Assembly: GCA_016933575.1 (NCBI GenBank)
Contig: JAFGAR010000163.1
Coordinates: forward strand, 1-54,728
Source of the DNA: Candidatus Thorarchaeota archaeon
GTDB taxonomy: Archaea > Asgardarchaeota > Thorarchaeia > Thorarchaeales > Thorarchaeaceae
DNA length: 54,728 nucleotides
Direction of reading: 5' to 3'
Of this stretch, positions 21,390 through 31,576 are shown piece by piece (the stretch's first letter is position 1; the number at the start of each line of letters is the position of its first letter). The notes beneath the pieces were generated by a model. It was not told the DNA's origin. It saw nothing but the letters and a program-made list of their open reading frames with translations, and ran no database searches. The position numbers were made by a program, and so were the translations under genes.

Positions 21390-21578
21390 GAATGATTGAT
21401 CTTACATCCGGTACTAAATTTGACAGATACATATCGTCGACTTGGAGTATGTCTCGCCGTCCTGCACGTATTTGTAGTTCTCTCTACTTTTGAACACTAC
21501 CGAGTATCTCTCTATTCCAGTACGTAAATACCAAATGTTAATGGGAACGGAACTTCATACCATACAGGGTGAGGTATC

Positions 21579-22667
21579 GTGGTAGGAACCAACTCCTTTC
21601 CAAGACTTACTCTTAATATGGGTATCTTTCTAGTGGGTCTACTTCTCTTTAGCAGTGTGTTTCTTAGATCTGGGAATTATTTAGGTCCCTACACTTATTA
21701 TAACGCAACTCCAATAACTCAGGGCGCAACTCTTACTGAAGAAACACCAGCCCTCTGGTTCAATTCTAGCTATATGACCGCAAAAATTGTAATCACAGGT
21801 CTCAGCACAAACAACACCCCCGTCACCCTAGTAGTTGGCGAGTCTGCCCAAGTTCTCTACAAGGCTACAAATATCACTGGAATGACTGGATTCTCTGTGG
21901 ATGTTCAAATAGGTGGAGCTGTTGAAAATTGGGTCGGAGTGATACGTCAGGAATCTGACGCAGAAGTTACAGTTCAGATAGTTCGTTATTTCATATACTA
22001 TTATACACCACCTCCTGCAGCACCGCCTCCTTATATCAACCTACTAGTATTTGTAGGACCCATTCTATGCGTATTCGCTGTTATCAGGATGATGCAGCTC
22101 ACATCAAAGTTCGAATACCCCCAGAATTCAGGTACAAAGATTTTCGCAGTCATTCTATTGTGTCTTATTGGCGTGAGTAGCTGCTTCTCGCTGCTAAATG
22201 GTCAAGTGAAGGGAGATTTTATCCCTGTGAGTACTACAGTAATCCTGCCAAGTGACAACTATTCTCTAACAATAAACACGACAAATCCTTCTGCGCTACT
22301 CAACATGTCCGAGTTCTATCCTGAGGATGCGATTGGGACAAGCTATAGAATCTACTCCCTTGTATCAGATCATTATCCAATCCTTGTCACAATCTCAAAT
22401 GGAACCATATCGGAACTTGTACTTGAATCAGAGAGCAAGTACAATCCTTGGTCATTTACTATCCCTCGAAGCTCGAGCAGTTCAATTTACATTAATATTG
22501 AACGTGGCAGCATTGATACAAAAATTGCTCTAGCTATTGAGAGGAGATATCAGGTTCCACTACCAAAGATGGACATCACATTTCCAGCAATCGAGTTTGC
22601 TCTTGGAATCTCAATGATAGTTATTGGTTTTGTAATTGTCTTTAAAATCGATAGACACTCTGAATAG
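21579..22667 (+). CDS. Hypothetical membrane protein, internally duplicated (TM - beta domain - TM) x2
   Basis: Four hydrophobic segments and two similar soluble domains with several N-x-S/T sequons; GAGGT RBS before GTG. Confidence 0.7.
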   Translation: MVGTNSFPRLTLNMGIFLVGLLLFSSVFLRSGNYLGPYTYYNATPITQGATLTEETPALWFNSSYMTAKIVITGLSTNNTPVTLVVGESAQVLYKATNITGMTGFSVDVQIGGAVENWVGVIRQESDAEVTVQIVRYFIYYYTPPPAAPPPYINLLVFVGPILCVFAVIRMMQLTSKFEYPQNSGTKIFAVILLCLIGVSSCFSLLNGQVKGDFIPVSTTVILPSDNYSLTINTTNPSALLNMSEFYPEDAIGTSYRIYSLVSDHYPILVTISNGTISELVLESESKYNPWSFTIPRSSSSSIYINIERGSIDTKIALAIERRYQVPLPKMDITFPAIEFALGISMIVIGFVIVFKIDRHSE

Positions 22668-22714
22668 ACCTGACTTCTGGGTTTCCTCAAAGACGATCGT
22701 GCAGGTGAAATCTG

Positions 22715-23371
22715 TTATTCCGTTGAATAGGTCCCTGACAGCGTACCTTCAATGTACTCTATTCGCTTAGTAAATCTCTTCTTGATATATTCATCAATCT
22801 CAGGCAACTCAGAGAGTCTTCGTAAGATGTCAGAAAATGAGGAATCCTTCCTGACTGCTTCAAGGTCCGCATTTCTCTTCTGCAGCATTGATTTCCTATA
22901 CGTATGAATGCCAATGATACCTAAAATTGGAGTGAGAATATACACAGGTATAATTAGAAACGCCAATGTGATGAGTGCTCCTTCAAAAATCACGAAATAA
23001 GATAGGACTGTAGTAGTTAGACCCAATGCTATGGCAGCTCCATATTGAGCGGCTTCAGCATCTGAGAGCGGCTTGTCTATTATTTGTTTTACTTCCATAT
23101 ATGACAGAAGTTCGGAAGGGCTCAACGTATCGACCTCCCAGGTCTCGAGAAGGACAATACTCTCTTCGCTCTCGTCAACCACATCAAATGGATTAGTGTC
23201 CACATCCCCCCACTGGACACGTTTCACTTCACACTCAGCATATTTTGGATCATTCTGAAGGGTCTTCTCTAATTCCTTACATTTTTCATCTCTATAGTAA
23301 ATTCCATACTCTACTTCAGATGCATCAATTTCGACTTTCACTCTTGTATCACGTACTTGTGACAAGACCAT
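22715..23371 (-). CDS. Membrane protein resembling a degenerate M48 (HtpX/Ste24-like) peptidase without HExxH
   Basis: Two TM helices. LSPSELLSY, QKRNADLEA and ILRRL...KRIEYI match M48 segments in order, but no zinc ligands are present. The ORF is solid; the family assignment is tentative. Confidence 0.5.
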   Translation of the reverse strand: MVLSQVRDTRVKVEIDASEVEYGIYYRDEKCKELEKTLQNDPKYAECEVKRVQWGDVDTNPFDVVDESEESIVLLETWEVDTLSPSELLSYMEVKQIIDKPLSDAEAAQYGAAIALGLTTTVLSYFVIFEGALITLAFLIIPVYILTPILGIIGIHTYRKSMLQKRNADLEAVRKDSSFSDILRRLSELPEIDEYIKKRFTKRIEYIEGTLSGTYSTE

Positions 23372-23463
23372 GAAGCAAGTTATACTTTCGCGATAATCCC
23401 CGAGAAGTGTCGCGTAACCACTCTCTCAAGAGTATTGATGATATAGCCCACATCTGTTGAGTG

Positions 23464-23512
23464 AAAACTAGAAGAAAGGGATGAAGTCGCTGAGAGATTG
23501 CATCCCTCAGCG
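23464..23512 (-). terminator. Hairpin plus pyrimidine/T-tract closing the peptide operon
   Basis: Minus strand CGCTGAGGGAT-gca-ATCTCTCAGCG (23488-23512) overlaps the TGA stop and is followed by CCCTTTCTTCTAGTTTT. Confidence 0.65.
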
Positions 23513-23596
23513 TCTGTAAGTGTAAGCGTAAGTGATCGCATCAGTAGAGATCTTCTTGTCAGAAGCCTTGATTCTCATATCCTTAACTAGAGCCAT
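23507..23596 (-). CDS. Micro-peptide 2, MALVKDMRIKASDKKISTDAITYAYTYRR (29 aa)
   Basis: Translated by hand (below the ORF-track cutoff). GGAGGT RBS at 23606-23611, 9 nt before ATG. Clear paralog of the upstream peptide. Confidence 0.8.
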   Translation of the reverse strand: MALVKDMRIKASDKKISTDAITYAYTYRR

Positions 23597-23603
23597 TGAT
23601 GAT

Positions 23604-23705
23604 TTACCTCCGGTACAAGTATGCGTATGCTACAGCCTCTGTGGAGAGGGGATTGCGTTTCTGCTTCAGTTCAGAGTTGGTTCGGTTGTTCGTTGTTAGA
23701 GCCAT
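23604..23705 (-). CDS. Micro-peptide 1, MALTTNNRTNSELKQKRNPLSTEAVAYAYLYRR (33 aa)
   Basis: Translated by hand. TATA box about 33-40 nt upstream. Shares MAL and ST.A..YAY.YRR-stop with peptide 2. Confidence 0.8.
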   Translation of the reverse strand: MALTTNNRTNSELKQKRNPLSTEAVAYAYLYRR

Positions 23706-23737
23706 AATAGTTCACAAGAGATACTGCTCAGAATTAG

Positions 23738-23792
23738 TATATATAGCAGAGGCACTTTTCAGGGACACAACTTGAAGTCACATCTTGTGACT
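23738..23792 (-). promoter_or_regulatory. TATA box and 7-3-7 palindromic operator for the peptide operon
   Basis: TATATATA at 23738-23745; perfect inverted repeat AGTCACA-tct-TGTGACT at 23776-23792. Confidence 0.6.
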
Positions 23793-23933
23793 AGCTAGAG
23801 AGGGCTCTGGGAGCATACCATCTAGCAAACTCATTATTAGAAGTCCAAATTGACATTAATGAAGAATAAAGCGCGGTCGGGAGTTTTACATCTCATCTTC
23901 AACAGAAATTCCATGTTCTACCTGGGAAAACCC

Positions 23934-24236
23934 TCAATGTTTTTCAACAAATATCACTAGCATTATAATTCCCATAAAGAGGACAACTCGTCCTAAGTAG
24001 TATCTCAAGTACAAATCGTATTCTGACCCACTTGTGAATGTGAAAATAAATAGAAAAAGAAACATGTCTGATATCTGCCACATTATCAAGGATACAAGAA
24101 ATTCAATAACTGATACCAATCTGTTCCAGATGTCGTCAGCATTTCTCTTGTAAGTAAATATCATGATTACAACTATGAGAACCGAAATTCCAATGAGTAA
24201 GCCATGTGGGTCTATCCCATGACCATACAATTGCAT
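23934..24236 (-). CDS. Small 3-TM membrane protein (paralog A)
   Basis: Three hydrophobic helices; aligns without gaps to the neighbouring ORF. Confidence 0.75.
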   Translation of the reverse strand: MQLYGHGIDPHGLLIGISVLIVVIMIFTYKRNADDIWNRLVSVIEFLVSLIMWQISDMFLFLFIFTFTSGSEYDLYLRYYLGRVVLFMGIIMLVIFVEKH

Positions 24237-24331
24237 GTTTTGATTCCCTTCAATCTCTTTGACAGTAGGAACTTTCTAGGTGTATTCTCCCTTTTCACCT
24301 CGCTATATATCATACCTGCATCACAGATTGT

Positions 24332-24697
24332 CTATGAGATTATAGCCTGAGTTTTTTCATGTTTTGTCTTGGTGAGTTCACGGCGCATCTCAATATATAC
24401 CAGAAGGATGCAAAATCCCAGGTACGATATGATTTTTGCAGCCTGTATAACGATAGGTTTGATATCTATTGGTAAGCTAATATGTGTGTAGACGATTAAG
24501 TCTGTTAATAGTACCAAAAATAGCCACGATACTGTAAACACAACAACTTCAATTGATGCAATAATCCAGTAACGGGGTCTGGTTGTTCGGTTCGTATAAC
24601 CAAGTACTACAACCAATAGCACTAAGATTACAATTGCAGTCCCGAGTTCGAGGGGACTTAGAGGATAATCCGGTTCAATCGTTGGAATCTCTTGCAT
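24332..24697 (-). CDS. Small 3-TM membrane protein (paralog B)
   Basis: Start reassigned to ATG 24697 (MQEIP), after GAGGTA; the longer ORF-track start runs into the tRNA. Three TM helices. Confidence 0.75.
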   Translation of the reverse strand: MQEIPTIEPDYPLSPLELGTAIVILVLLVVVLGYTNRTTRPRYWIIASIEVVVFTVSWLFLVLLTDLIVYTHISLPIDIKPIVIQAAKIISYLGFCILLVYIEMRRELTKTKHEKTQAIIS

Positions 24698-24854
24698 TGA
24701 CTTACCTCTCTCATTTTTACTACCATCCCGGCCAGCGATGTTCTGACTAAGATGTGCACCGTAGAATGGATACCAAAGAACCTTGAGAACTTTGCTGATA
24801 CTATGCTGAGTAGTACCTATTGTTGCAGAGAAATAATTAACTATAGAAAAGAAG

Positions 24855-25078
24855 CGCCATCGGGAGGGCTCGAACCTTTGGCCGCGCACCACGAAGTGTA
24901 GTGCACTCCGACCATTCGTCACGCACCACGAAACGTGATGCGTTACAACTGTCTGGCTCTCAACCAGTCGATTGAAAGATAACAGGCTTTAGCGGTATAA
25001 CGTGAAGCACGTATATGCTGTCGCTATCGATTGTGTGTTTCTGAAGAAACACACAGCTACCGACTGAGCCACGATGGC
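24855..25078 (-). tRNA. tRNA-Asn(GUU) with five BHB introns (22/23, 28/29, 37/38, 43/44, 50/51)
   Basis: Introns 25026-25056 (31 nt), 24989-25019 (31), 24951-24979 (29), 24915-24944 (30) and 24878-24907 (30). Removing them gives GCCATCG TG GCTC AGTCGGTA GAGC G ACAGC CTGTTAA GTTGT TGGTC GGAGG TTCGAGC CCTCC CGATGGC G, a 73-nt cloverleaf with G73. Anticodon GTT at 24981-24983. CCA is not encoded. Confidence 0.9.
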
Positions 25079-25105
25079 TTAATTGGGCAATCGGTGTTGA
25101 AAGCA

Positions 25106-25116
25106 ATATTAACGTT
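25106..25116 (-). promoter_or_regulatory. Putative tRNA promoter (AACGTTAATAT)
   Basis: TATA-like 11-mer 28-38 nt upstream of tRNA-Asn; the identical 11-mer lies upstream of tRNA-Ile2. Confidence 0.6.
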
Positions 25117-25142
25117 GCTGTTCAGTCCAATGTTCGAAATCG

Positions 25143-26072
25143 CTATTGCAGAATGCATTCTGGTCTGAGATAATAGAGTTCTCCTGCTCTGCGCAGAAAT
25201 ACCATACCTCCATGTTCTAATGCTGCTCTGTACGCTTCTGCAATATTAGTATTAGAGTCAATGACAAAGCCGCGTTTCATTATTGGTCGCAATCGGTCTT
25301 GTAGTGGGTCTAGGGATATCGAATCATGGTCGAGAAAGCTATCAAGAGCGAGACAGAAGAAAATATTCAACAGAGCCTGATTCAAGAAATAGATGTTATC
25401 GTCGGAACCTGCAACGACAATTGGTTCTGGTTGTTTTACACTACGATTTTCTACGAGTCGAATCGCATCACTCAATGTGTCAGAAGGATCTAGGACATCA
25501 CTGATCTTAGAAGCTAGAAGATATGCTGATGCTTTATACAAATCATCGAAATGTCTTCTCCACATTATTACGGAGTACGCAAAGAGGTTCATCGCTAGAT
25601 TACCATATTCTCCCGTACCATAGATACCAAGAGTCTTTCGGCCGATGATTTTGTACTCATTCATATGATCAATGGTGCTTGAAACATTCTTCTGTTTCGT
25701 GTTCAAGAAATCTGCAAGATCCTGTGTTGTAAACAGACCTGGTTTCCAGAGTTTGTTGATGATGAAGAGCTTTCCTGCATTATTCAGATTCTTGAAGACA
25801 TTATCTACATCAGGTTCACCCCCATAGAACTCAAGTAATTTCTGATAAATTGGTTGAGCTCGGCCAAAGCCGATGTTGAATATGATGAACTTCTTTGGTA
25901 TTTCATTTCCCGCGACAAGTGAGTTTCTGATGTTCTTTGAATAGGTGCTTATCTCTTCGAGTGTCTTTCTGAATATGGATGGTGGTGCTTTCTCCAGATA
26001 TCTTATGATCTCAAAGAATTCCGTCTTTAGCTTATTATCCAACTCAATGTCTATTATTTCGGACATCATCAA
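25143..26072 (-). CDS. Putative transcription regulator: winged HTH plus degenerate CBS-pair
   Basis: FTTQDLADFLNTKQKNVSSTIDHMNEYKII wHTH. LDPSDTLSDAIRLV...PIVV and IDSNTNIAEAYRAALEH are CBS-like repeats. Confidence 0.6.
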   Translation of the reverse strand: MMMSEIIDIELDNKLKTEFFEIIRYLEKAPPSIFRKTLEEISTYSKNIRNSLVAGNEIPKKFIIFNIGFGRAQPIYQKLLEFYGGEPDVDNVFKNLNNAGKLFIINKLWKPGLFTTQDLADFLNTKQKNVSSTIDHMNEYKIIGRKTLGIYGTGEYGNLAMNLFAYSVIMWRRHFDDLYKASAYLLASKISDVLDPSDTLSDAIRLVENRSVKQPEPIVVAGSDDNIYFLNQALLNIFFCLALDSFLDHDSISLDPLQDRLRPIMKRGFVIDSNTNIAEAYRAALEHGGMVFLRRAGELYYLRPECILQ

Positions 26073-26090
26073 TCAAACATCCTTTTAATT

Positions 26091-26144
26091 ATCGTGATTT
26101 TTCATTTTCACGATTAAATAGTGTGGAAGTCTTATAAGATTTCC
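26091..26144. promoter_or_regulatory. Divergent promoter with two palindromes
   Basis: ATCGTGA-N10-TCACGAT (26091-26114) and GGAAGTCTTATAAGATTTCC (26125-26144), which has a perfect TCTTATAAGA TATA-like core. Confidence 0.6.
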
Positions 26145-26160
26145 TTATTGTTTCAAAACA

Positions 26161-27132
26161 GTGGTTAGAGGAGAATTTGTTGGTTTGATTCGAGAAGCAG
26201 CCATAAATGAACACAAATCTAAGTATGAAAAGTGGATCTTTGATACTACACTTGATTACCAGGAGTATTCTCTTTCAAAAGGACTTGGAAAGCGAATCAG
26301 ATATCTCTCAGAGGAGCCACTATTAGTAGTACTAGGCGCGGGTATGTCTGAGACCACTGGGCCATTCTATAAAGAGTGGGAACAATACAAAGAGGATGTG
26401 ACTTCGGAGGATCCTGAGTCACTAACTGGATTCTGTGATTATTTTGAATATGGTGGTATTGAAGCAATTCCAAAGAGTGGAATCGAAGTCATCCCTAATC
26501 TTGTGAGAATGGGAAAGATGCCCGTATTTCTCGTATTCAACTATAATTGCCACCTAGAACTCTGTCTGGTCCTGTGTGATGTTGGATATGAATCGATTTC
26601 ATACAATGGAAAGAACACCTTTGAGGTCACTCGAGTAGGAAGACCAAAATGCACAATCTTCAAACCTCATGGGTCTTCAAGACTGATTGATAGACCGACC
26701 CAGATAATTTGGCCTGACTGGCCATCAAAGAAAGGTGAACCTGAAAATCGAGGACAATTCGAACTTCTGAATCATAAGATTCGGGAGAAGAAGATCAAGA
26801 ATAGCGCGATTCTTGGGTACTCTGGAAATTGGGATCCATACATGAAGAAACATATGCAGAGAATCTCAGAAAAATGCTCAATGATTCAATTTGGTCTGCC
26901 ACGTAATGTGGCTAGACCTCCTGCCACAACAAAATGGGGCATCTTAGAGAAGAATGGATTCATCACCGATTTTGACAAGGGTGGTACTGATTTTCTATAT
27001 GGTCTTTCAAAGCTAAATGGATTATCAAGACAATGCACAACGAAACAAAAGAGCCCTCTATCGACCCTATCTGAAAAGCTTGAACAGATTGATATTGAAA
27101 CAACATCGCTTTCTATCGAATCTACCCATTGA
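26161..27132 (+). CDS. SIR2-like (SIR2_2) domain protein, putative defence NADase
   Basis: VVLGAGMS, VFNYN (TNYD-like), IFKPHGS, ILGYSGNWD in canonical order. Start may be TTG 26185. Confidence 0.75.
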   Translation: MVRGEFVGLIREAAINEHKSKYEKWIFDTTLDYQEYSLSKGLGKRIRYLSEEPLLVVLGAGMSETTGPFYKEWEQYKEDVTSEDPESLTGFCDYFEYGGIEAIPKSGIEVIPNLVRMGKMPVFLVFNYNCHLELCLVLCDVGYESISYNGKNTFEVTRVGRPKCTIFKPHGSSRLIDRPTQIIWPDWPSKKGEPENRGQFELLNHKIREKKIKNSAILGYSGNWDPYMKKHMQRISEKCSMIQFGLPRNVARPPATTKWGILEKNGFITDFDKGGTDFLYGLSKLNGLSRQCTTKQKSPLSTLSEKLEQIDIETTSLSIESTH

Positions 27133-27272
27133 TATCTGATAGTCTGGAAGAATGAAGATATCCGCCTAGACTACATTATAACATTGGCATTACCTTCCTG
27201 CCAATTCTGTTCTATCAATACTACTAAGAGCCTTGATCACTCTACTCTACATTGGTTTCTAGGGTGATTTGA

Positions 27273-28016
27273 GTGAAAGATGCGATCCAAGAGTCTAGAA
27301 GAATAATTTCAGAAGCCAGAGAGCGGGGTGTGACCCTTCGACTGATAGGCGGTCTTGCCTTTCGGCAACATTGCAATGAACTTGCTTTCTGCGAGCGTGA
27401 ATATGGCGATATAGACCTAGTTGGTCTGTCGCACGAATCCTCTCGAATAATTAATACTCTGACAGCCCTAGGATACAAAGAAAATATCACCTACACGCTT
27501 GCCTCTGGGGGAAATCGTCTCTTATTTGAGAAACCGGACTCACAAGACCATGTTGACATCTTTCTCGACAAATTACGAATGGAGCACGATATCACTCTAA
27601 GACATAGACTCGACATTGAAGAATTCACAATCTCTGTGAGTGACCTCTTAATATGCAAGTTGATCATTATGAATCTGAACGAGAAGGACTATCGTGATAT
27701 CATCACCATTGTAAAGGACCTCACTCTTGGAGAAGTTGACGCTCCATCTGTGATTAATACTAAGTATCTAGCTAAGATTTGCTCCAGTAGATGGGGTCTC
27801 TACTACGATGTCATCGCATCTCTTGATAAATGTATAAAATTTCTAGACTATTATCAACTTGATGAAGTAGTAGCTAGAGAGGTTTTAAAGCGGCTTGCAC
27901 TGATTAAGCAACGTATTGTTGACCATCCGAAATCTTTACGATGGAAACTCCGGAATCATGTTGGAAAACGGCTTCAATGGCGAAAAATAGTTGAGCTTGA
28001 ACATATTGCAAGATAA
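27273..28016 (+). CDS. Nucleotidyltransferase-superfamily protein
   Basis: LRLIGGLAF...REYGDIDLV (GG plus DxD), HVDIF, DLL..KL, KDYRD. Confidence 0.72.
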   Translation: MKDAIQESRRIISEARERGVTLRLIGGLAFRQHCNELAFCEREYGDIDLVGLSHESSRIINTLTALGYKENITYTLASGGNRLLFEKPDSQDHVDIFLDKLRMEHDITLRHRLDIEEFTISVSDLLICKLIIMNLNEKDYRDIITIVKDLTLGEVDAPSVINTKYLAKICSSRWGLYYDVIASLDKCIKFLDYYQLDEVVAREVLKRLALIKQRIVDHPKSLRWKLRNHVGKRLQWRKIVELEHIAR

Positions 28017-28304
28017 GAAACCACAAAAATGCATCACGTCAAAATCTGCGGGCTAGATGAAACCACATCAATTTACTACTTTTTCGAGAAGTGGACTTTT
28101 ATTAATGGGGCTATTCTTGAATCTAGACCAAAATAGACCTATACGGTTCCAGGAACTACAAACGAAAAGTATAGCCCTCAATAACAGAAGCAATCTCAAA
28201 TCACATTTGGGGCCGCACACACACAATCACAACTAATCATTCTTTGTAACAACTTGCTTCTGACCAATAATACTATTTAATGGGAATTGATATTCGCCCA
28301 ATCT

Positions 28305-28502
28305 ATGAGTTCATTCTGGGATGATCTTCCGAGAGTAGCCCCTATCTGCCTGATTGTGTTTTTCGGTGTAGTAATTATTCTTGTGGGCTTTATCTTTCAG
28401 CGATTTCTTCCAACAGCTGGAAGCGCTGTTTTTGTTCTTATGGTCCTCCTGTTCAGCATCTCACTCTGCATATTTGGAATTAGACAGGGTGCCCTAGATT
28501 GA
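28305..28502 (+). CDS. Small 2-TM hypothetical protein
   Basis: Two hydrophobic helices; TATA-like TATTTAA upstream; ATG 28305. Confidence 0.55.
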   Translation: MSSFWDDLPRVAPICLIVFFGVVIILVGFIFQRFLPTAGSAVFVLMVLLFSISLCIFGIRQGALD

Positions 28503-28503
28503 A

Positions 28504-29304
28504 CTATCCCGCTCCAAATAGGAATGTAAACACATTATCTAGCGACATCATGATGAGAAAACCAACCATTAATCCCCATGTTGCTAATCTTTCATTACCC
28601 CCAGAATGGCTCTCGGGGACCATTTCATCTCCTACGACATACACCATCGCACCTGCAGCAAATGCAAGTCCATATGGTAAGAGTCCAACTGCGAATGTGA
28701 CCACTGAGACCCCCAGTAGACCCCCAATCGGTTCTACGAGGCCTGTTACCAAAGCCAATGCTGCTGCATACTTTCGAGAGTACCCTTGTCTCACCAATGG
28801 TGCTGCTACTGCAAGACCTTCCGGAATATTCTGCAATCCTATCGCCACCGCAACAGAGAGTCCTGTCAATATCTGGTCTCCACCGAACGACACACCTACA
28901 GCAAGCCCCTCTGGAAAATTATGTATCGTTATCGCAATAACAAGAAGCCATACCCTACTCAACTTTGAATCTGGCCCCTCATGTCCCTTCTTGAAATGCT
29001 CGTGTGGAAGAAATCTATCTGTGGCATATACAAAGAGAGCACCTAGCATAAATCCAAAACCAACTATCGTAAAGACCCCAGTCCACCCCGCAATTTGTAC
29101 TGCTTGTTCTTCAAATGCTGGGACGAGCAGACTGAATGCTGAGGCCGCCAGCATGACTCCAGCTGCAAAACCAAGCATGAGGTCAAGAGTTCTTCTACTG
29201 AAGTCTTTCTTGATAAATATTGGAATCGCTCCTAGTCCTGTTGCGGTCCCAGCTAAAAGACTCGCAATAATTCCCAATGAAAAGGGATCTGAGAGAAGTT
29301 GCAT
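28504..29304 (-). CDS. zupT: ZIP family (ZupT/GufA) divalent metal transporter
   Basis: GFAAGVML, HNFPEGLAVG, QNIPEG, AAGAM.YVV..EM.PE. Confidence 0.93.
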   Translation of the reverse strand: MQLLSDPFSLGIIASLLAGTATGLGAIPIFIKKDFSRRTLDLMLGFAAGVMLAASAFSLLVPAFEEQAVQIAGWTGVFTIVGFGFMLGALFVYATDRFLPHEHFKKGHEGPDSKLSRVWLLVIAITIHNFPEGLAVGVSFGGDQILTGLSVAVAIGLQNIPEGLAVAAPLVRQGYSRKYAAALALVTGLVEPIGGLLGVSVVTFAVGLLPYGLAFAAGAMVYVVGDEMVPESHSGGNERLATWGLMVGFLIMMSLDNVFTFLFGAG

Positions 29305-29620
29305 CGTTGCTGCCTCGAATGGAAGCCGACATACTTATGCACTATAAGGCACTTACTGTTGATTGATTAGCTTGAGTCAATAGATAAAATGATGAGGTGG
29401 CCTCAGTTTTCCGAGGCTTGGAACGACAAACGAGTTACTGGTGGACGCAGAGCTATACTCGAATTTTCAAAGTGCCTCCAAATACTTCATCATGATATAG
29501 TTCGTATGATAGCTTATTAGCTCCTACCTCGGAAAGAATGAGCTAACTCTGTTTTGGAAGATTCAATATGCAAGTTTGTATATACAACACTCAGAGTCTT
29601 ACTACTGGAAGTGATGTGAA

Positions 29621-30769: not shown

Positions 30770-30875
30770 TGGTGGGCCCGGGGCGATTTGAACGCCCGGC
30801 CGACAGGTTATGAGCTTCAACACACCAGCGAAGTTCTGAGTGTACTGCTGCTCTACCAAGCTGAGCTACGGGCCC
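30770..30875 (-). tRNA. tRNA-Ile2(CAU) (agmatidine-type) with a 29-nt non-canonical intron at 30/31
   Basis: GGGCCCG TA GCTC AGCTTGGTA GAGC A GCAG[intron 30816-30844]G CTCATAA CCTGT CGGCC GGGCG TTCAAAT CGCCC CGGGCCC A CCA. BHB helix CAGC/GTTG with AG|T and AA|G bulges. A GGGCCC acceptor is typical of archaeal Ile tRNAs rather than Met. Confidence 0.85.
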
Positions 30876-31498: not shown

Positions 31499-31576
31499 GC
31501 CCCGGTAGTGTAGTCCGGCCCAGCATCTAGGCCTTTCGAGTCTAAGACCCGGGTTCGAATCCCGGCCGGGGCACCA
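31499..31576 (+). tRNA. tRNA-Glu(UUC), intron-less, CCA encoded
   Basis: GCCCCGG...TAGGC CTTTCGA GTCTA...CCGGG TTCGAAT CCCGG CCGGGGC ACCA. Confidence 0.95.

What the first reader, a model, noticed from the sequence alone, without database searches (positions are those of the whole stretch)
24855..25078. tRNA-Asn(GUU) gene fragmented by five BHB introns
Seen: the 224-nt locus reduces to an exact 73-nt tRNA-Asn after removing five 29-31-nt introns at 22/23, 28/29, 37/38, 43/44 and 50/51. Each intron has its own hairpin and a BHB-like junction, with central helices CGGT/ATCG, AGCG/CGCT, CTGT/CCAG (3 of 4 pairs), AGTT/GACG (3 of 4) and GGTC/GGCC, each with 3-nt bulges. The exons are 22, 6, 9, 6, 7 and 23 nt, so about two thirds of the gene is intron. 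Established: archaeal EndA cleaves BHB motifs, and multi-intron tRNAs are known mainly from Thermoproteales; the maximum I know of is three introns. Inference: this is an extreme case that standard tRNA finders would probably miss, and it implies a broad-specificity splicing endonuclease in this lineage.
Basis: partly seen in the sequence, partly recalled or inferred. Interest (0 to 1): 0.93.

Follow-up and report, generated by a model that had tools for sequence, protein, structure and literature searches.

The report
Five-intron asparagine tRNA gene, Thorarchaeota
This 224-base stretch is a real asparagine tRNA gene of an Asgard (Thorarchaeota) archaeon, cut into six pieces by five tiny protein-spliced introns. 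That ties the highest count reported (a 2026 preprint on other Asgard lineages), so it is an extreme example of a known kind.

Summary
On the minus strand, 25078..24855 gives a 73-nt tRNA-Asn(GUU) with 21 of 21 cloverleaf pairs once inserts of 31, 31, 29, 30 and 30 nt are removed after positions 22, 28, 37, 43 and 50.

- **Junctions:** each one is contiguous in at least one orthologous gene of a related genome. The spliced product is identical to the mature tRNA-Asn predicted for another genus.
- **Intron shape:** every intron has a 3- or 4-bp central helix, two 3-nt bulges and its own hairpin (relaxed bulge-helix-bulge).
- **Family comparison:** across 59 orthologous genes of the family, the hairpins sit in fixed register to the cut sites and show many compensatory changes.
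- **Enzyme:** the genome encodes a two-subunit splicing endonuclease. Its catalytic subunit carries the loop and lysine known to give broad specificity.
- **Standard finders:** ARAGORN and Rfam miss or miscall the locus.

Novelty is limited. A 2026 preprint reports up to five introns per tRNA gene in other Asgard classes. This scan had already found a five-intron tRNA-Asn on other Thorarchaeota DNA, and I found two more here.

The new part is the family picture: six intron sites in one gene, 0 to 5 occupied, in 21 patterns. No RNA evidence could be obtained.

The parts
25105..25121 (-). Conserved BRE/TATA-like promoter motif (ACAGCAAYGTTAATATT). The TATA-like part lies at about -34 to -27 from the first tRNA base.
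   Evidence: The motif is present at the same place upstream of all 45 orthologous tRNA-Asn genes that had enough flank. Upstream conservation also shows in the BLAST hits.
25057..25078 (-). Exon 1: tRNA positions 1-22 (acceptor 5' strand, D-stem 5' strand, D-loop).
   Evidence: This is the only match to the family's 5' exon pattern in the genome.
25026..25056 (-). Intron 1: 31 nt at 22/23. It has a 10-bp hairpin and central helix CGGT/ATCG.
   Evidence: It is absent, with a contiguous junction, in G017, G018, G023 and others. D-loop base 17 covaries with intron base -3 (C-G 8, A-T 5, T-A 2).
25020..25025 (-). Exon 2: 6 nt (positions 23-28).
   Evidence: The length equals the 4-nt central-helix strand plus the 2 bulge bases needed for intron 2.
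24989..25019 (-). Intron 2: 31 nt at 28/29. It has central helix AGCG/CGCT and an interrupted hairpin.
   Evidence: It is absent in G004, G007, G009, G013, G017 and others. The central helix is 4 of 4 in 21 of 23 orthologues.
24980..24988 (-). Exon 3: 9 nt (positions 29-37, including anticodon GTT).
24951..24979 (-). Intron 3: 29 nt at the canonical 37/38 site. It has central helix CTGT/CCAG (3 of 4) and a 9-bp inner helix with a 4-nt loop.
   Evidence: It is absent in G018, G023, G044-G048, G079 and others. The hairpin is paired in 91% of cells, and all 9 pairs show double changes.
24945..24950 (-). Exon 4: 6 nt (positions 38-43).
24915..24944 (-). Intron 4: 30 nt at 43/44. It has central helix AGTT/GACG (3 of 4) and a 10-bp hairpin.
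   Evidence: It is 97% identical to the G017 intron at the same site and absent in most orthologues. The hairpin is paired in 95% of cells.
24908..24914 (-). Exon 5: 7 nt (positions 44-50).
24878..24907 (-). Intron 5: 30 nt at 50/51, inside the T-stem 5' strand. It has central helix GGTC/GGCC and a 9-bp hairpin.
   Evidence: Ten orthologues carry an intron at this site. The hairpin is paired in 99% of cells.
24855..24877 (-). Exon 6: positions 51-73 (rest of the T-arm, acceptor 3' strand, discriminator G). CCA is not encoded. A T-rich tract follows at about 24845-24854.

Best explanation
This is the working tRNA-Asn(GUU) gene of a Thorarchaeota (Asgard) genome, interrupted by five short archaeal endonuclease-type introns.

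**Shown:**
- Gene structure and exact junctions.
- Motif geometry at every junction.
- Conservation across the family.
- Presence of the endonuclease genes.

**Inferred mechanism:**
1. The gene is transcribed from a conserved BRE/TATA promoter into a precursor of about 224 nt.
2. Each intron folds into its own hairpin. Its last six bases supply one strand of a 4-bp helix (pairing with the four exon bases that end two bases before the 5' cut) and two bases of the 3' bulge.
3. This makes five relaxed bulge-helix-bulge (HBh') motifs side by side.
4. [quoted passage not shown] Its catalytic subunit has the Crenarchaea-specific loop.
5. An RtcB-type ligase joins the six exons, and CCA is added.

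The micro-exons of 6, 6 and 7 nt are close to the shortest length that still supplies the exon half of the next motif.
For: - **Structure:** 21 of 21 cloverleaf pairs and anticodon GTT after splicing.
- **Junctions:** each of the five is contiguous in some orthologue. G018 and G086 have the gene with no intron at all. The product is identical to the G069 mature sequence. Intron-less orthologues score 70-71 bits on RF00005.
- **Motifs:** central helices are 4, 4, 3, 3 and 4 of 4, with 3-nt bulges. The minimum-free-energy fold of the whole precursor is five such hairpins inside the acceptor stem, z = -6.8.
- **Family:** the helix anchored one base after the 5' cut and six bases before the 3' cut is paired in 84-99% of cells at sites 22, 37, 43, 50 and 59, with compensatory changes. 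Slid controls give 11-53%. The central helix is at least 3 of 4 in nearly all instances.
- **Promoter:** the motif is conserved in 45 of 45 orthologues.
- **Single copy:** no second archaeal-type Asn gene is in the assembly.
- **Enzyme:** there are two EndA paralogues. The alpha subunit matches the A. pernix alpha chain 3p1z_B at E 1.5e-44, ungapped through the loop region, with K43 and K45 at the places of K44 and R46 (PMC3241643). The second paralogue lacks the 9-residue loop and has N in place of the catalytic His.
- **Ligase:** RtcB is present in 26 of 27 congeners.
- **Assembly:** an independent Logan contig of the source run is identical over the locus. Every intron site also recurs in MAGs from other studies.
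Against: - No RNA evidence exists. The mature tRNA, splicing intermediates and intron circles were not seen, and the two metatranscriptome runs of the study gave no cover.
- The outer exon-exon helix of a strict BHB is only 1-3 bp for all five introns, so cleavage relies on relaxed-motif activity that has not been measured for any Asgard enzyme.
- Two central helices have a mismatch.
- RtcB was not found in this 85.5%-complete assembly.
- An intact bacterial-type tRNA-Asn lies on a 2.8-kb contig of the same bin.
Confidence: 0.88

Rival explanations
1. The locus is a decaying or silent copy. Asn codons are read by another tRNA-Asn, either the intact one on contig C90 or one on an unassembled part of the genome.
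For: An intact 75-nt tRNA-Asn(gtt) lies at C90:14-88 and scores 72.7 bits. The assembly is only 85.5% complete. There is no RNA evidence of splicing.
Against: - The C90 gene starts with T and pairs T1-A72, which from my own knowledge is a bacterial tRNA-Asn trait.
- Its 2.8-kb contig has no homologue in 26 of 27 congeners, and the bin has 6.9% estimated contamination.
- The interrupted gene keeps a perfect cloverleaf, all five splicing motifs and the family-wide promoter.
- Apart from truncated extra copies in a few genomes, orthologues with 1-5 introns are the only Asn gene found in their genomes.
Confidence: 0.06
2. The gene is functional, but the five introns cannot all be removed independently. 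Maturation needs a fixed order, or some inserts need a factor other than EndA.
For: - The first base of exon 2 (A23) and of exon 4 (A38) is both the third bulge base of the preceding intron and the first base of the next central helix.
- The outer helix of intron 3 (the anticodon stem) is complete only after intron 2 is removed.
- Ordered removal was shown experimentally for three-intron tRNAs of Cyanidioschyzon merolae (PMC3728597).
Against: The minimum-free-energy and centroid folds of the intact precursor already contain all five hairpins with their flanking helices at once. The pair that would clash at A38 is a mismatch anyway.
Confidence: 0.05
3. The locus is an assembly artefact or chimera of a metagenome bin.
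For: The genome is a fragmented MAG of 215 contigs. Only contigs, not raw reads, of the source run could be laid.
Against: - A separately assembled 7.2-kb contig of the source run covers 24700-25250 with no difference, at depth 16.8.
- Every intron site recurs with related sequence in MAGs of other studies.
- Introns 4 and 5 are 97% and 83% identical to those of G017.
Confidence: 0.01

Closest known systems
[quoted passage not shown] 2024 (PMC11291895); Goswami et al. 2026 preprint (10.64898/2026.10.13.758758)
   Same: Both have short (about 20-30 nt) introns at many non-canonical sites, placed at BHB motifs. Both reach up to five in one gene and are missed by standard annotators. Both lineages carry a two-subunit EndA. 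None has been shown experimentally to be spliced.
   Different: This genome is Thorarchaeota, which the main text of the preprint does not name. Its overall burden is only about one intron per placed gene, against 2.2 in the preprint's focal families. The Asn gene is therefore an outlier in its own genome.
Five-intron tRNA-Asn genes of other Thorarchaeota
   Same: It is the same gene with the same sites 22/23, 28/29, 37/38 and 43/44, and five introns in all.
   Different: The fifth intron of G001 and G070 lies in the T-loop (59/60). Here it lies in the T-stem (50/51), and the T-loop site is empty.
Multi-intron tRNA genes of Thermoproteales (Sugahara 2008; Fujishima 2010; summarised by Chan et al. 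2021, PMC8450103)
   Same: Both have relaxed BHB introns at non-canonical sites, an (alpha-beta)2 EndA with the Crenarchaea-specific loop, and related intron sequences at different sites.
   Different: The maximum there is three introns per gene. It is a different phylum, and the ~30-nt length is more uniform here.
Disrupted nuclear tRNA genes of the red alga Cyanidioschyzon merolae (PMC3728597)
   Same: Both have multiple ectopic BHB introns. Ordered removal there was shown by RT-PCR.
   Different: That is a eukaryote with at most three introns, and splicing was proven experimentally. Here nothing has been tested on RNA.

Membership tests
tRNA-Asn(GUU) | Cloverleaf with 7-bp acceptor, 4-bp D, 5-bp anticodon and 5-bp T stems, and anticodon GUU at positions 34-36 | tested here: met
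   21 of 21 pairs after removal of the five inserts; ARAGORN calls tRNA-Asn(gtt).
tRNA-Asn(GUU) | Scores as a tRNA under a covariance model (Rfam RF00005) | tested here: inconclusive
   The tool cannot take the in-silico spliced letters. The natural intron-less orthologues G018, G086 and G093 score 70-71 bits. G086 differs from the spliced product at five positions: two compensated acceptor pairs and D-loop base 17. The unspliced locus scores nothing.
tRNA-Asn(GUU) | Orthology with the tRNA-Asn of related genomes | tested here: met
   The spliced product is 97-100% identical to the predicted mature tRNA-Asn of the closest family members. The upstream promoter motif is shared. The flanking genes are not syntenic.
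Archaeal BHB tRNA intron (strict hBHBh') | 4-bp central helix flanked by two 3-nt bulges on opposite strands, with the cuts after the second bulge base | tested here: met
   Helices are 4, 4, 3, 3 and 4 of 4 with 3-nt bulges, in the register that gives the exact mature sequence. The family-wide helix is at least 3 of 4 in nearly all instances.
Archaeal BHB tRNA intron (strict hBHBh') | Inner helix h' directly adjoining the central helix | tested here: met
   There are 9-10 bp for introns 1, 3, 4 and 5, and an interrupted helix for intron 2. Covariation in fixed register is shown.
Archaeal BHB tRNA intron (strict hBHBh') | Outer exon-exon helix h of at least 2-3 bp | tested here: not met
   Only 2, 1, 3, 1 and 1 consecutive pairs. 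The motifs are therefore of the relaxed HBh' kind, not strict hBHBh'.
Archaeal BHB tRNA intron (strict hBHBh') | Cleavage by EndA and ligation in the cell | not testable with these tools
   No RNA holder was listed for the stretch, and the two metatranscriptome runs gave no cover.
(alpha-beta)2 splicing endonuclease with Crenarchaea-specific loop | Two distinct EndA paralogues, one catalytic and one structural | tested here: met
   The two hits to PF01974 and PF02778 are G000:C57 (188 aa) and G000:C16 (213 aa). They are 31% identical, and the second has N where the first has the catalytic His.
(alpha-beta)2 splicing endonuclease with Crenarchaea-specific loop | Loop insertion in the alpha subunit carrying the conserved Lys (K44 of A. 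pernix EndA) | tested here: met
   The alignment to 3p1z_B is ungapped through the loop, and RKPKS aligns with EKPRG. The loop is a 9-residue insertion relative to the second paralogue. The role of K44 is from PMC3241643.
(alpha-beta)2 splicing endonuclease with Crenarchaea-specific loop | Heterotetramer assembly and broad substrate range | not tested
   This needs biochemistry. It has been inferred for Asgard archaea by Kaneta et al. 2018 (PMC5829648).

The most novel reading that the evidence does not exclude
The tRNA-Asn gene of Thorarchaeaceae is a hotspot of intron turnover that may show how archaeal tRNA introns arrive. Three observations point this way:
- It has six sites and 21 occupancy patterns in 59 species.
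- The introns at 43/44 and 50/51 belong to one sequence class. The same GGCT intron end can pair with both exon sites. That class also sits in the variable-loop and T-stem sites of tRNA-Gly(GCC).
- The five-intron allele of this genome looks like a mosaic. Its 5' part is closest to another genus (G058) and its 3' part is closest to a congener (G017).

If introns are copied between nearby sites and alleles recombine, this locus would give a concrete route of intron gain. The 2026 census calls that route the central open problem.
Probability: 0.3. Interest if true: 0.65.

Novelty: new member of a known kind. Interest (0 to 1): 0.45.

Why it matters
The locus shows that the most extreme tRNA gene fragmentation known in archaea also occurs in Thorarchaeota. 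Five introns fill two thirds of the gene and leave exons as short as 6 nt.

Standard annotation would leave this genome without a tRNA-Asn.

The 59 orthologous genes, with 0 to 5 introns at six sites, form a compact natural series. It can be used to:
- test how relaxed bulge-helix-bulge motifs are recognised;
- find how closely introns can be packed;
- ask whether introns spread by copying or by recombination.

The enzyme that must process these precursors is the archaeal counterpart of the eukaryotic tRNA splicing endonuclease, in the closest known relatives of eukaryotes.

Tried and rejected
- **RNA evidence:** no RNA holder was listed for the stretch. Two metatranscriptome runs of the same study (X2, X3, kept as contigs) laid nothing on 24700-25250. 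This says nothing either way.
- **Rfam on the unspliced locus:** at E up to 10 it gave only chance hits such as mir-9416 and CRISPR-DR45.
- **Synteny:** the four ORFs flanking the gene have no counterpart next to the orthologous genes, so orthology rests on the gene and its promoter.
- **Flanking ORFs:** the ORFs at 22715-24850 and 25143-29347 have no Pfam family, and no integrase was recognised nearby.
- **Contig C90:** its large ORF gave no informative family. Its foreign origin is inferred only from the tRNA type and the lack of homologues in congeners.
- **N-masked reference:** a spliced alignment against an N-masked reference mis-split introns 4 and 5 of this gene and blurred the T-loop boundaries. 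For those I relied.
- **Alternative reading:** an anticodon-like loop (TTGAGAG) inside intron 3 was dropped. Its stem is the conserved intron hairpin, and the Asn reading gives a perfect cloverleaf.
- **Direct copying of intron 4 to 5 within this gene:** I rejected it as proven. Introns of tRNA-Gly(GCC) in the same genome are equally similar, at 70-74% in gapped alignment.
- **RtcB:** it was not found in this assembly but is present in 26 of 27 congeners. I treat this as an assembly gap.
- **Not run:** tRNAscan-SE and SPLITS were not available.

Full report
**The observation**

The tRNA lies on the minus strand, from 25078 to 24855. Only the lengths 31, 31, 29, 30 and 30 give 21 of 21 cloverleaf pairs and the anticodon GTT. 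ARAGORN calls the resulting 73-nt product tRNA-Asn(gtt).

The unspliced locus is invisible to default ARAGORN and to Rfam, at the gathering threshold and at E up to 10. ARAGORN in intron mode miscalls it tRNA-Leu(cag) with a single 129-nt intron.

**Comparative proof of the junctions**

The window is contig C153 of a 3.47-Mb, 215-contig MAG, 85.5% complete with 6.9% contamination. Related contigs carry the title Candidatus Thorarchaeota archaeon. The class holds 87 species genomes, 86 of them in one family of 16 genera.

I searched the genus and the class for the 5' exon. I then aligned each hit to an intron-less reference with an intron-aware alignment, which recovered about 59 orthologous tRNA-Asn genes.

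- Four genomes (G018, G086, G093, G094) have the gene with no intron. G018, G086 and G093 score 70-71 bits on RF00005.
- Each of the five junctions of this gene is contiguous in several orthologues.
- The spliced product is 100% identical to the predicted mature tRNA-Asn of G069, a member of another genus.
- All 45 orthologues with enough flank share a BRE/TATA-like motif upstream.

Across the family the gene has six intron sites: 22/23, 28/29, 37/38, 43/44, 50/51 and about 59/60. Between 0 and 5 are occupied, in 21 patterns. Five introns occur in G000, G001 and G070. The latter two use the T-loop site instead of 50/51. No gene has six.

**Splicing motifs**

I used the register known from archaeal pre-tRNAs. 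The central helix forms between the four exon bases that end two bases before the 5' cut and the four intron bases that end two bases before the 3' cut. In that register the five helices have 4, 4, 3, 3 and 4 pairs, each with two 3-nt bulges. An intron hairpin of 9-10 bp starts one base after the 5' cut; in intron 2 it is interrupted.

The outer exon-exon helix is only 1-3 bp, so these are relaxed HBh' motifs. The minimum-free-energy and centroid folds of the whole 224-nt precursor are five such hairpins in a row, enclosed by the acceptor stem (-98.3 kcal/mol, z = -6.8).

In the family:
- The central helix keeps at least 3 of 4 pairs in nearly all instances.
- D-loop base 17 covaries with the intron base opposite it at site 22.
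- The anchored inner helix is paired in 84-99% of cells at five of the six sites, with double changes. Slid controls give 11-53%.

Exons 2 and 4 (6 nt) are exactly the four helix bases plus two bulge bases needed for the next intron. Their first base doubles as the last bulge base of the preceding intron. The region 22-50 is therefore packed close to the geometric limit.

**The enzymes**

The genome has two EndA paralogues.

- **C57 (188 aa):** it matches the catalytic alpha chain of Aeropyrum pernix EndA (3p1z_B) at E 1.5e-44. The alignment is ungapped through the Crenarchaea-specific loop, with Lys at the places of K44 and R46. That loop and K44 confer broad substrate range (PMC3241643).
- **C16 (213 aa):** it lacks the 9-residue loop and has Asn at the place of the catalytic His, as expected of a structural beta subunit.

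This agrees with Kaneta et al. 2018, who predicted (alpha-beta)2 EndA with the L1 loop for Asgard archaea (PMC5829648). RtcB is not in this assembly but is in 26 of 27 congeners.

**Is it the working gene?**

No other archaeal-type tRNA-Asn is in the assembly. The intact tRNA-Asn on the 2.8-kb contig C90 has a T1-A72 start, typical of bacteria (my own knowledge). Its contig has no homologue in 26 of 27 congeners. I regard it as a probable binning contaminant, though this is not proven.

A separately assembled contig of the source run is identical over the locus. No RNA data could be obtained, so splicing is inferred.

**Context in the genome**

I placed tRNA genes with a reference-guided, motif-free census. 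It used compact tRNAs of two relatives and of this genome as references, 13-nt end anchors and intron-aware alignment. The census placed 36 tRNA genes, all confirmed by ARAGORN after splicing.

| Introns | Genes placed |
|---|---|
| 0 | 14 (including the C90 gene) |
| 1 | 12 |
| 2 | about 9 |
| 3 | 1, Gly(GCC) |

One four-intron call looks spurious. This gives about one intron per placed gene, so the five-intron Asn gene is the outlier. The census is incomplete and biased against heavily split genes.

**Origin of the five introns**

The 43/44 and 50/51 intron families are 67% identical without gaps across the family. Each is about 30% identical to the 59/60 family. The same GGCT end occurs at both sites.

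Introns of tRNA-Gly(GCC) in this genome are equally similar in gapped alignment. They therefore form a wider class, and direct copying within the Asn gene is not shown.

Introns 1-3 of this gene are closest to those of G058, of another genus (81, 81 and 93% identity). Introns 4-5 are closest to those of G017, of the same genus (97 and 83%), which lacks introns 1 and 2. This fits either recombination between alleles or differential loss.

**Novelty**

However, Valentin-Alvarado et al. 2024 described Asgard genomes in which over half of the tRNA genes have several introns (PMC11291895). A preprint of October 2026 reports up to five in one gene in Jordiarchaeia and Atabeyarchaeia. It does not name Thorarchaeota in its main text.

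This scan had already confirmed a five-intron tRNA-Asn on other Thorarchaeota DNA (e1-5383486). The finding is therefore a new member of a known kind. The family-wide series and the packing limit are the added value.

Noticed in passing
window 30773-30875 (-): This is a tRNA-Met(CAU) with one 29-nt non-canonical intron in the anticodon stem (about 30/31). It has an encoded CCA, unlike the Asn gene. The tRNA-Glu(UUC) at 31499-31573 (+) is uninterrupted.
   Followed up: partly
window 24332-24922 (-): The mechanical ORF of 196 aa starts at a GTG inside intron 4 of the tRNA gene, so its first ~23 codons overlap the tRNA. The real start, if the ORF is a gene at all, must lie downstream of 24855. 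It has no Pfam family.
   Followed up: partly
window about 21500-29400: The stretch around the tRNA-Asn gene holds only ORFs without a Pfam family. It is not syntenic with the neighbourhoods of the orthologous gene in relatives, so it may be a variable island at a tRNA gene. No integrase was recognised.
   Followed up: partly
L039 (G007:C427), L040 (G015:C205), L041 and L042 (G014:C10): Some relatives carry extra truncated copies of the tRNA-Asn 5' part. One is an intron-less 34-nt fragment. Another carries introns 22/23, 28/29 and 37/38 and breaks off in the T-arm. These look like attachment-site remnants of integrated elements.
   Followed up: no
G000:C90:1-2843 (L106): This 2.8-kb contig has a bacterial-type tRNA-Asn(GTT) at 14-88 and a 631-aa ORF of no clear family. 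It has no homologue in 26 of 27 congeners and is probably a binning contaminant.
   Followed up: partly
G000:C16:35236-37144 (L104:1171-3079): The beta-like EndA gene overlaps the start of a 451-aa ATPase-like ORF, and a double-intron tRNA gene follows at C16:37195-37322.
   Followed up: no
G000:C7:86294-86456 (-): The tRNA-Gly(GCC) has three ~30-nt introns (about 13/14, 47/48 and 52/53). The last two resemble introns 4 and 5 of the Asn gene at 65-74% identity in gapped alignment.
   Followed up: partly
family-wide, tRNA-Asn orthologues: The intron at 50/51 never co-occurs with the T-loop intron at 59/60 (0 of 10). It co-occurs with the 43/44 intron only in G000 and G017. Phylogenetic non-independence was not controlled.
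   Followed up: no
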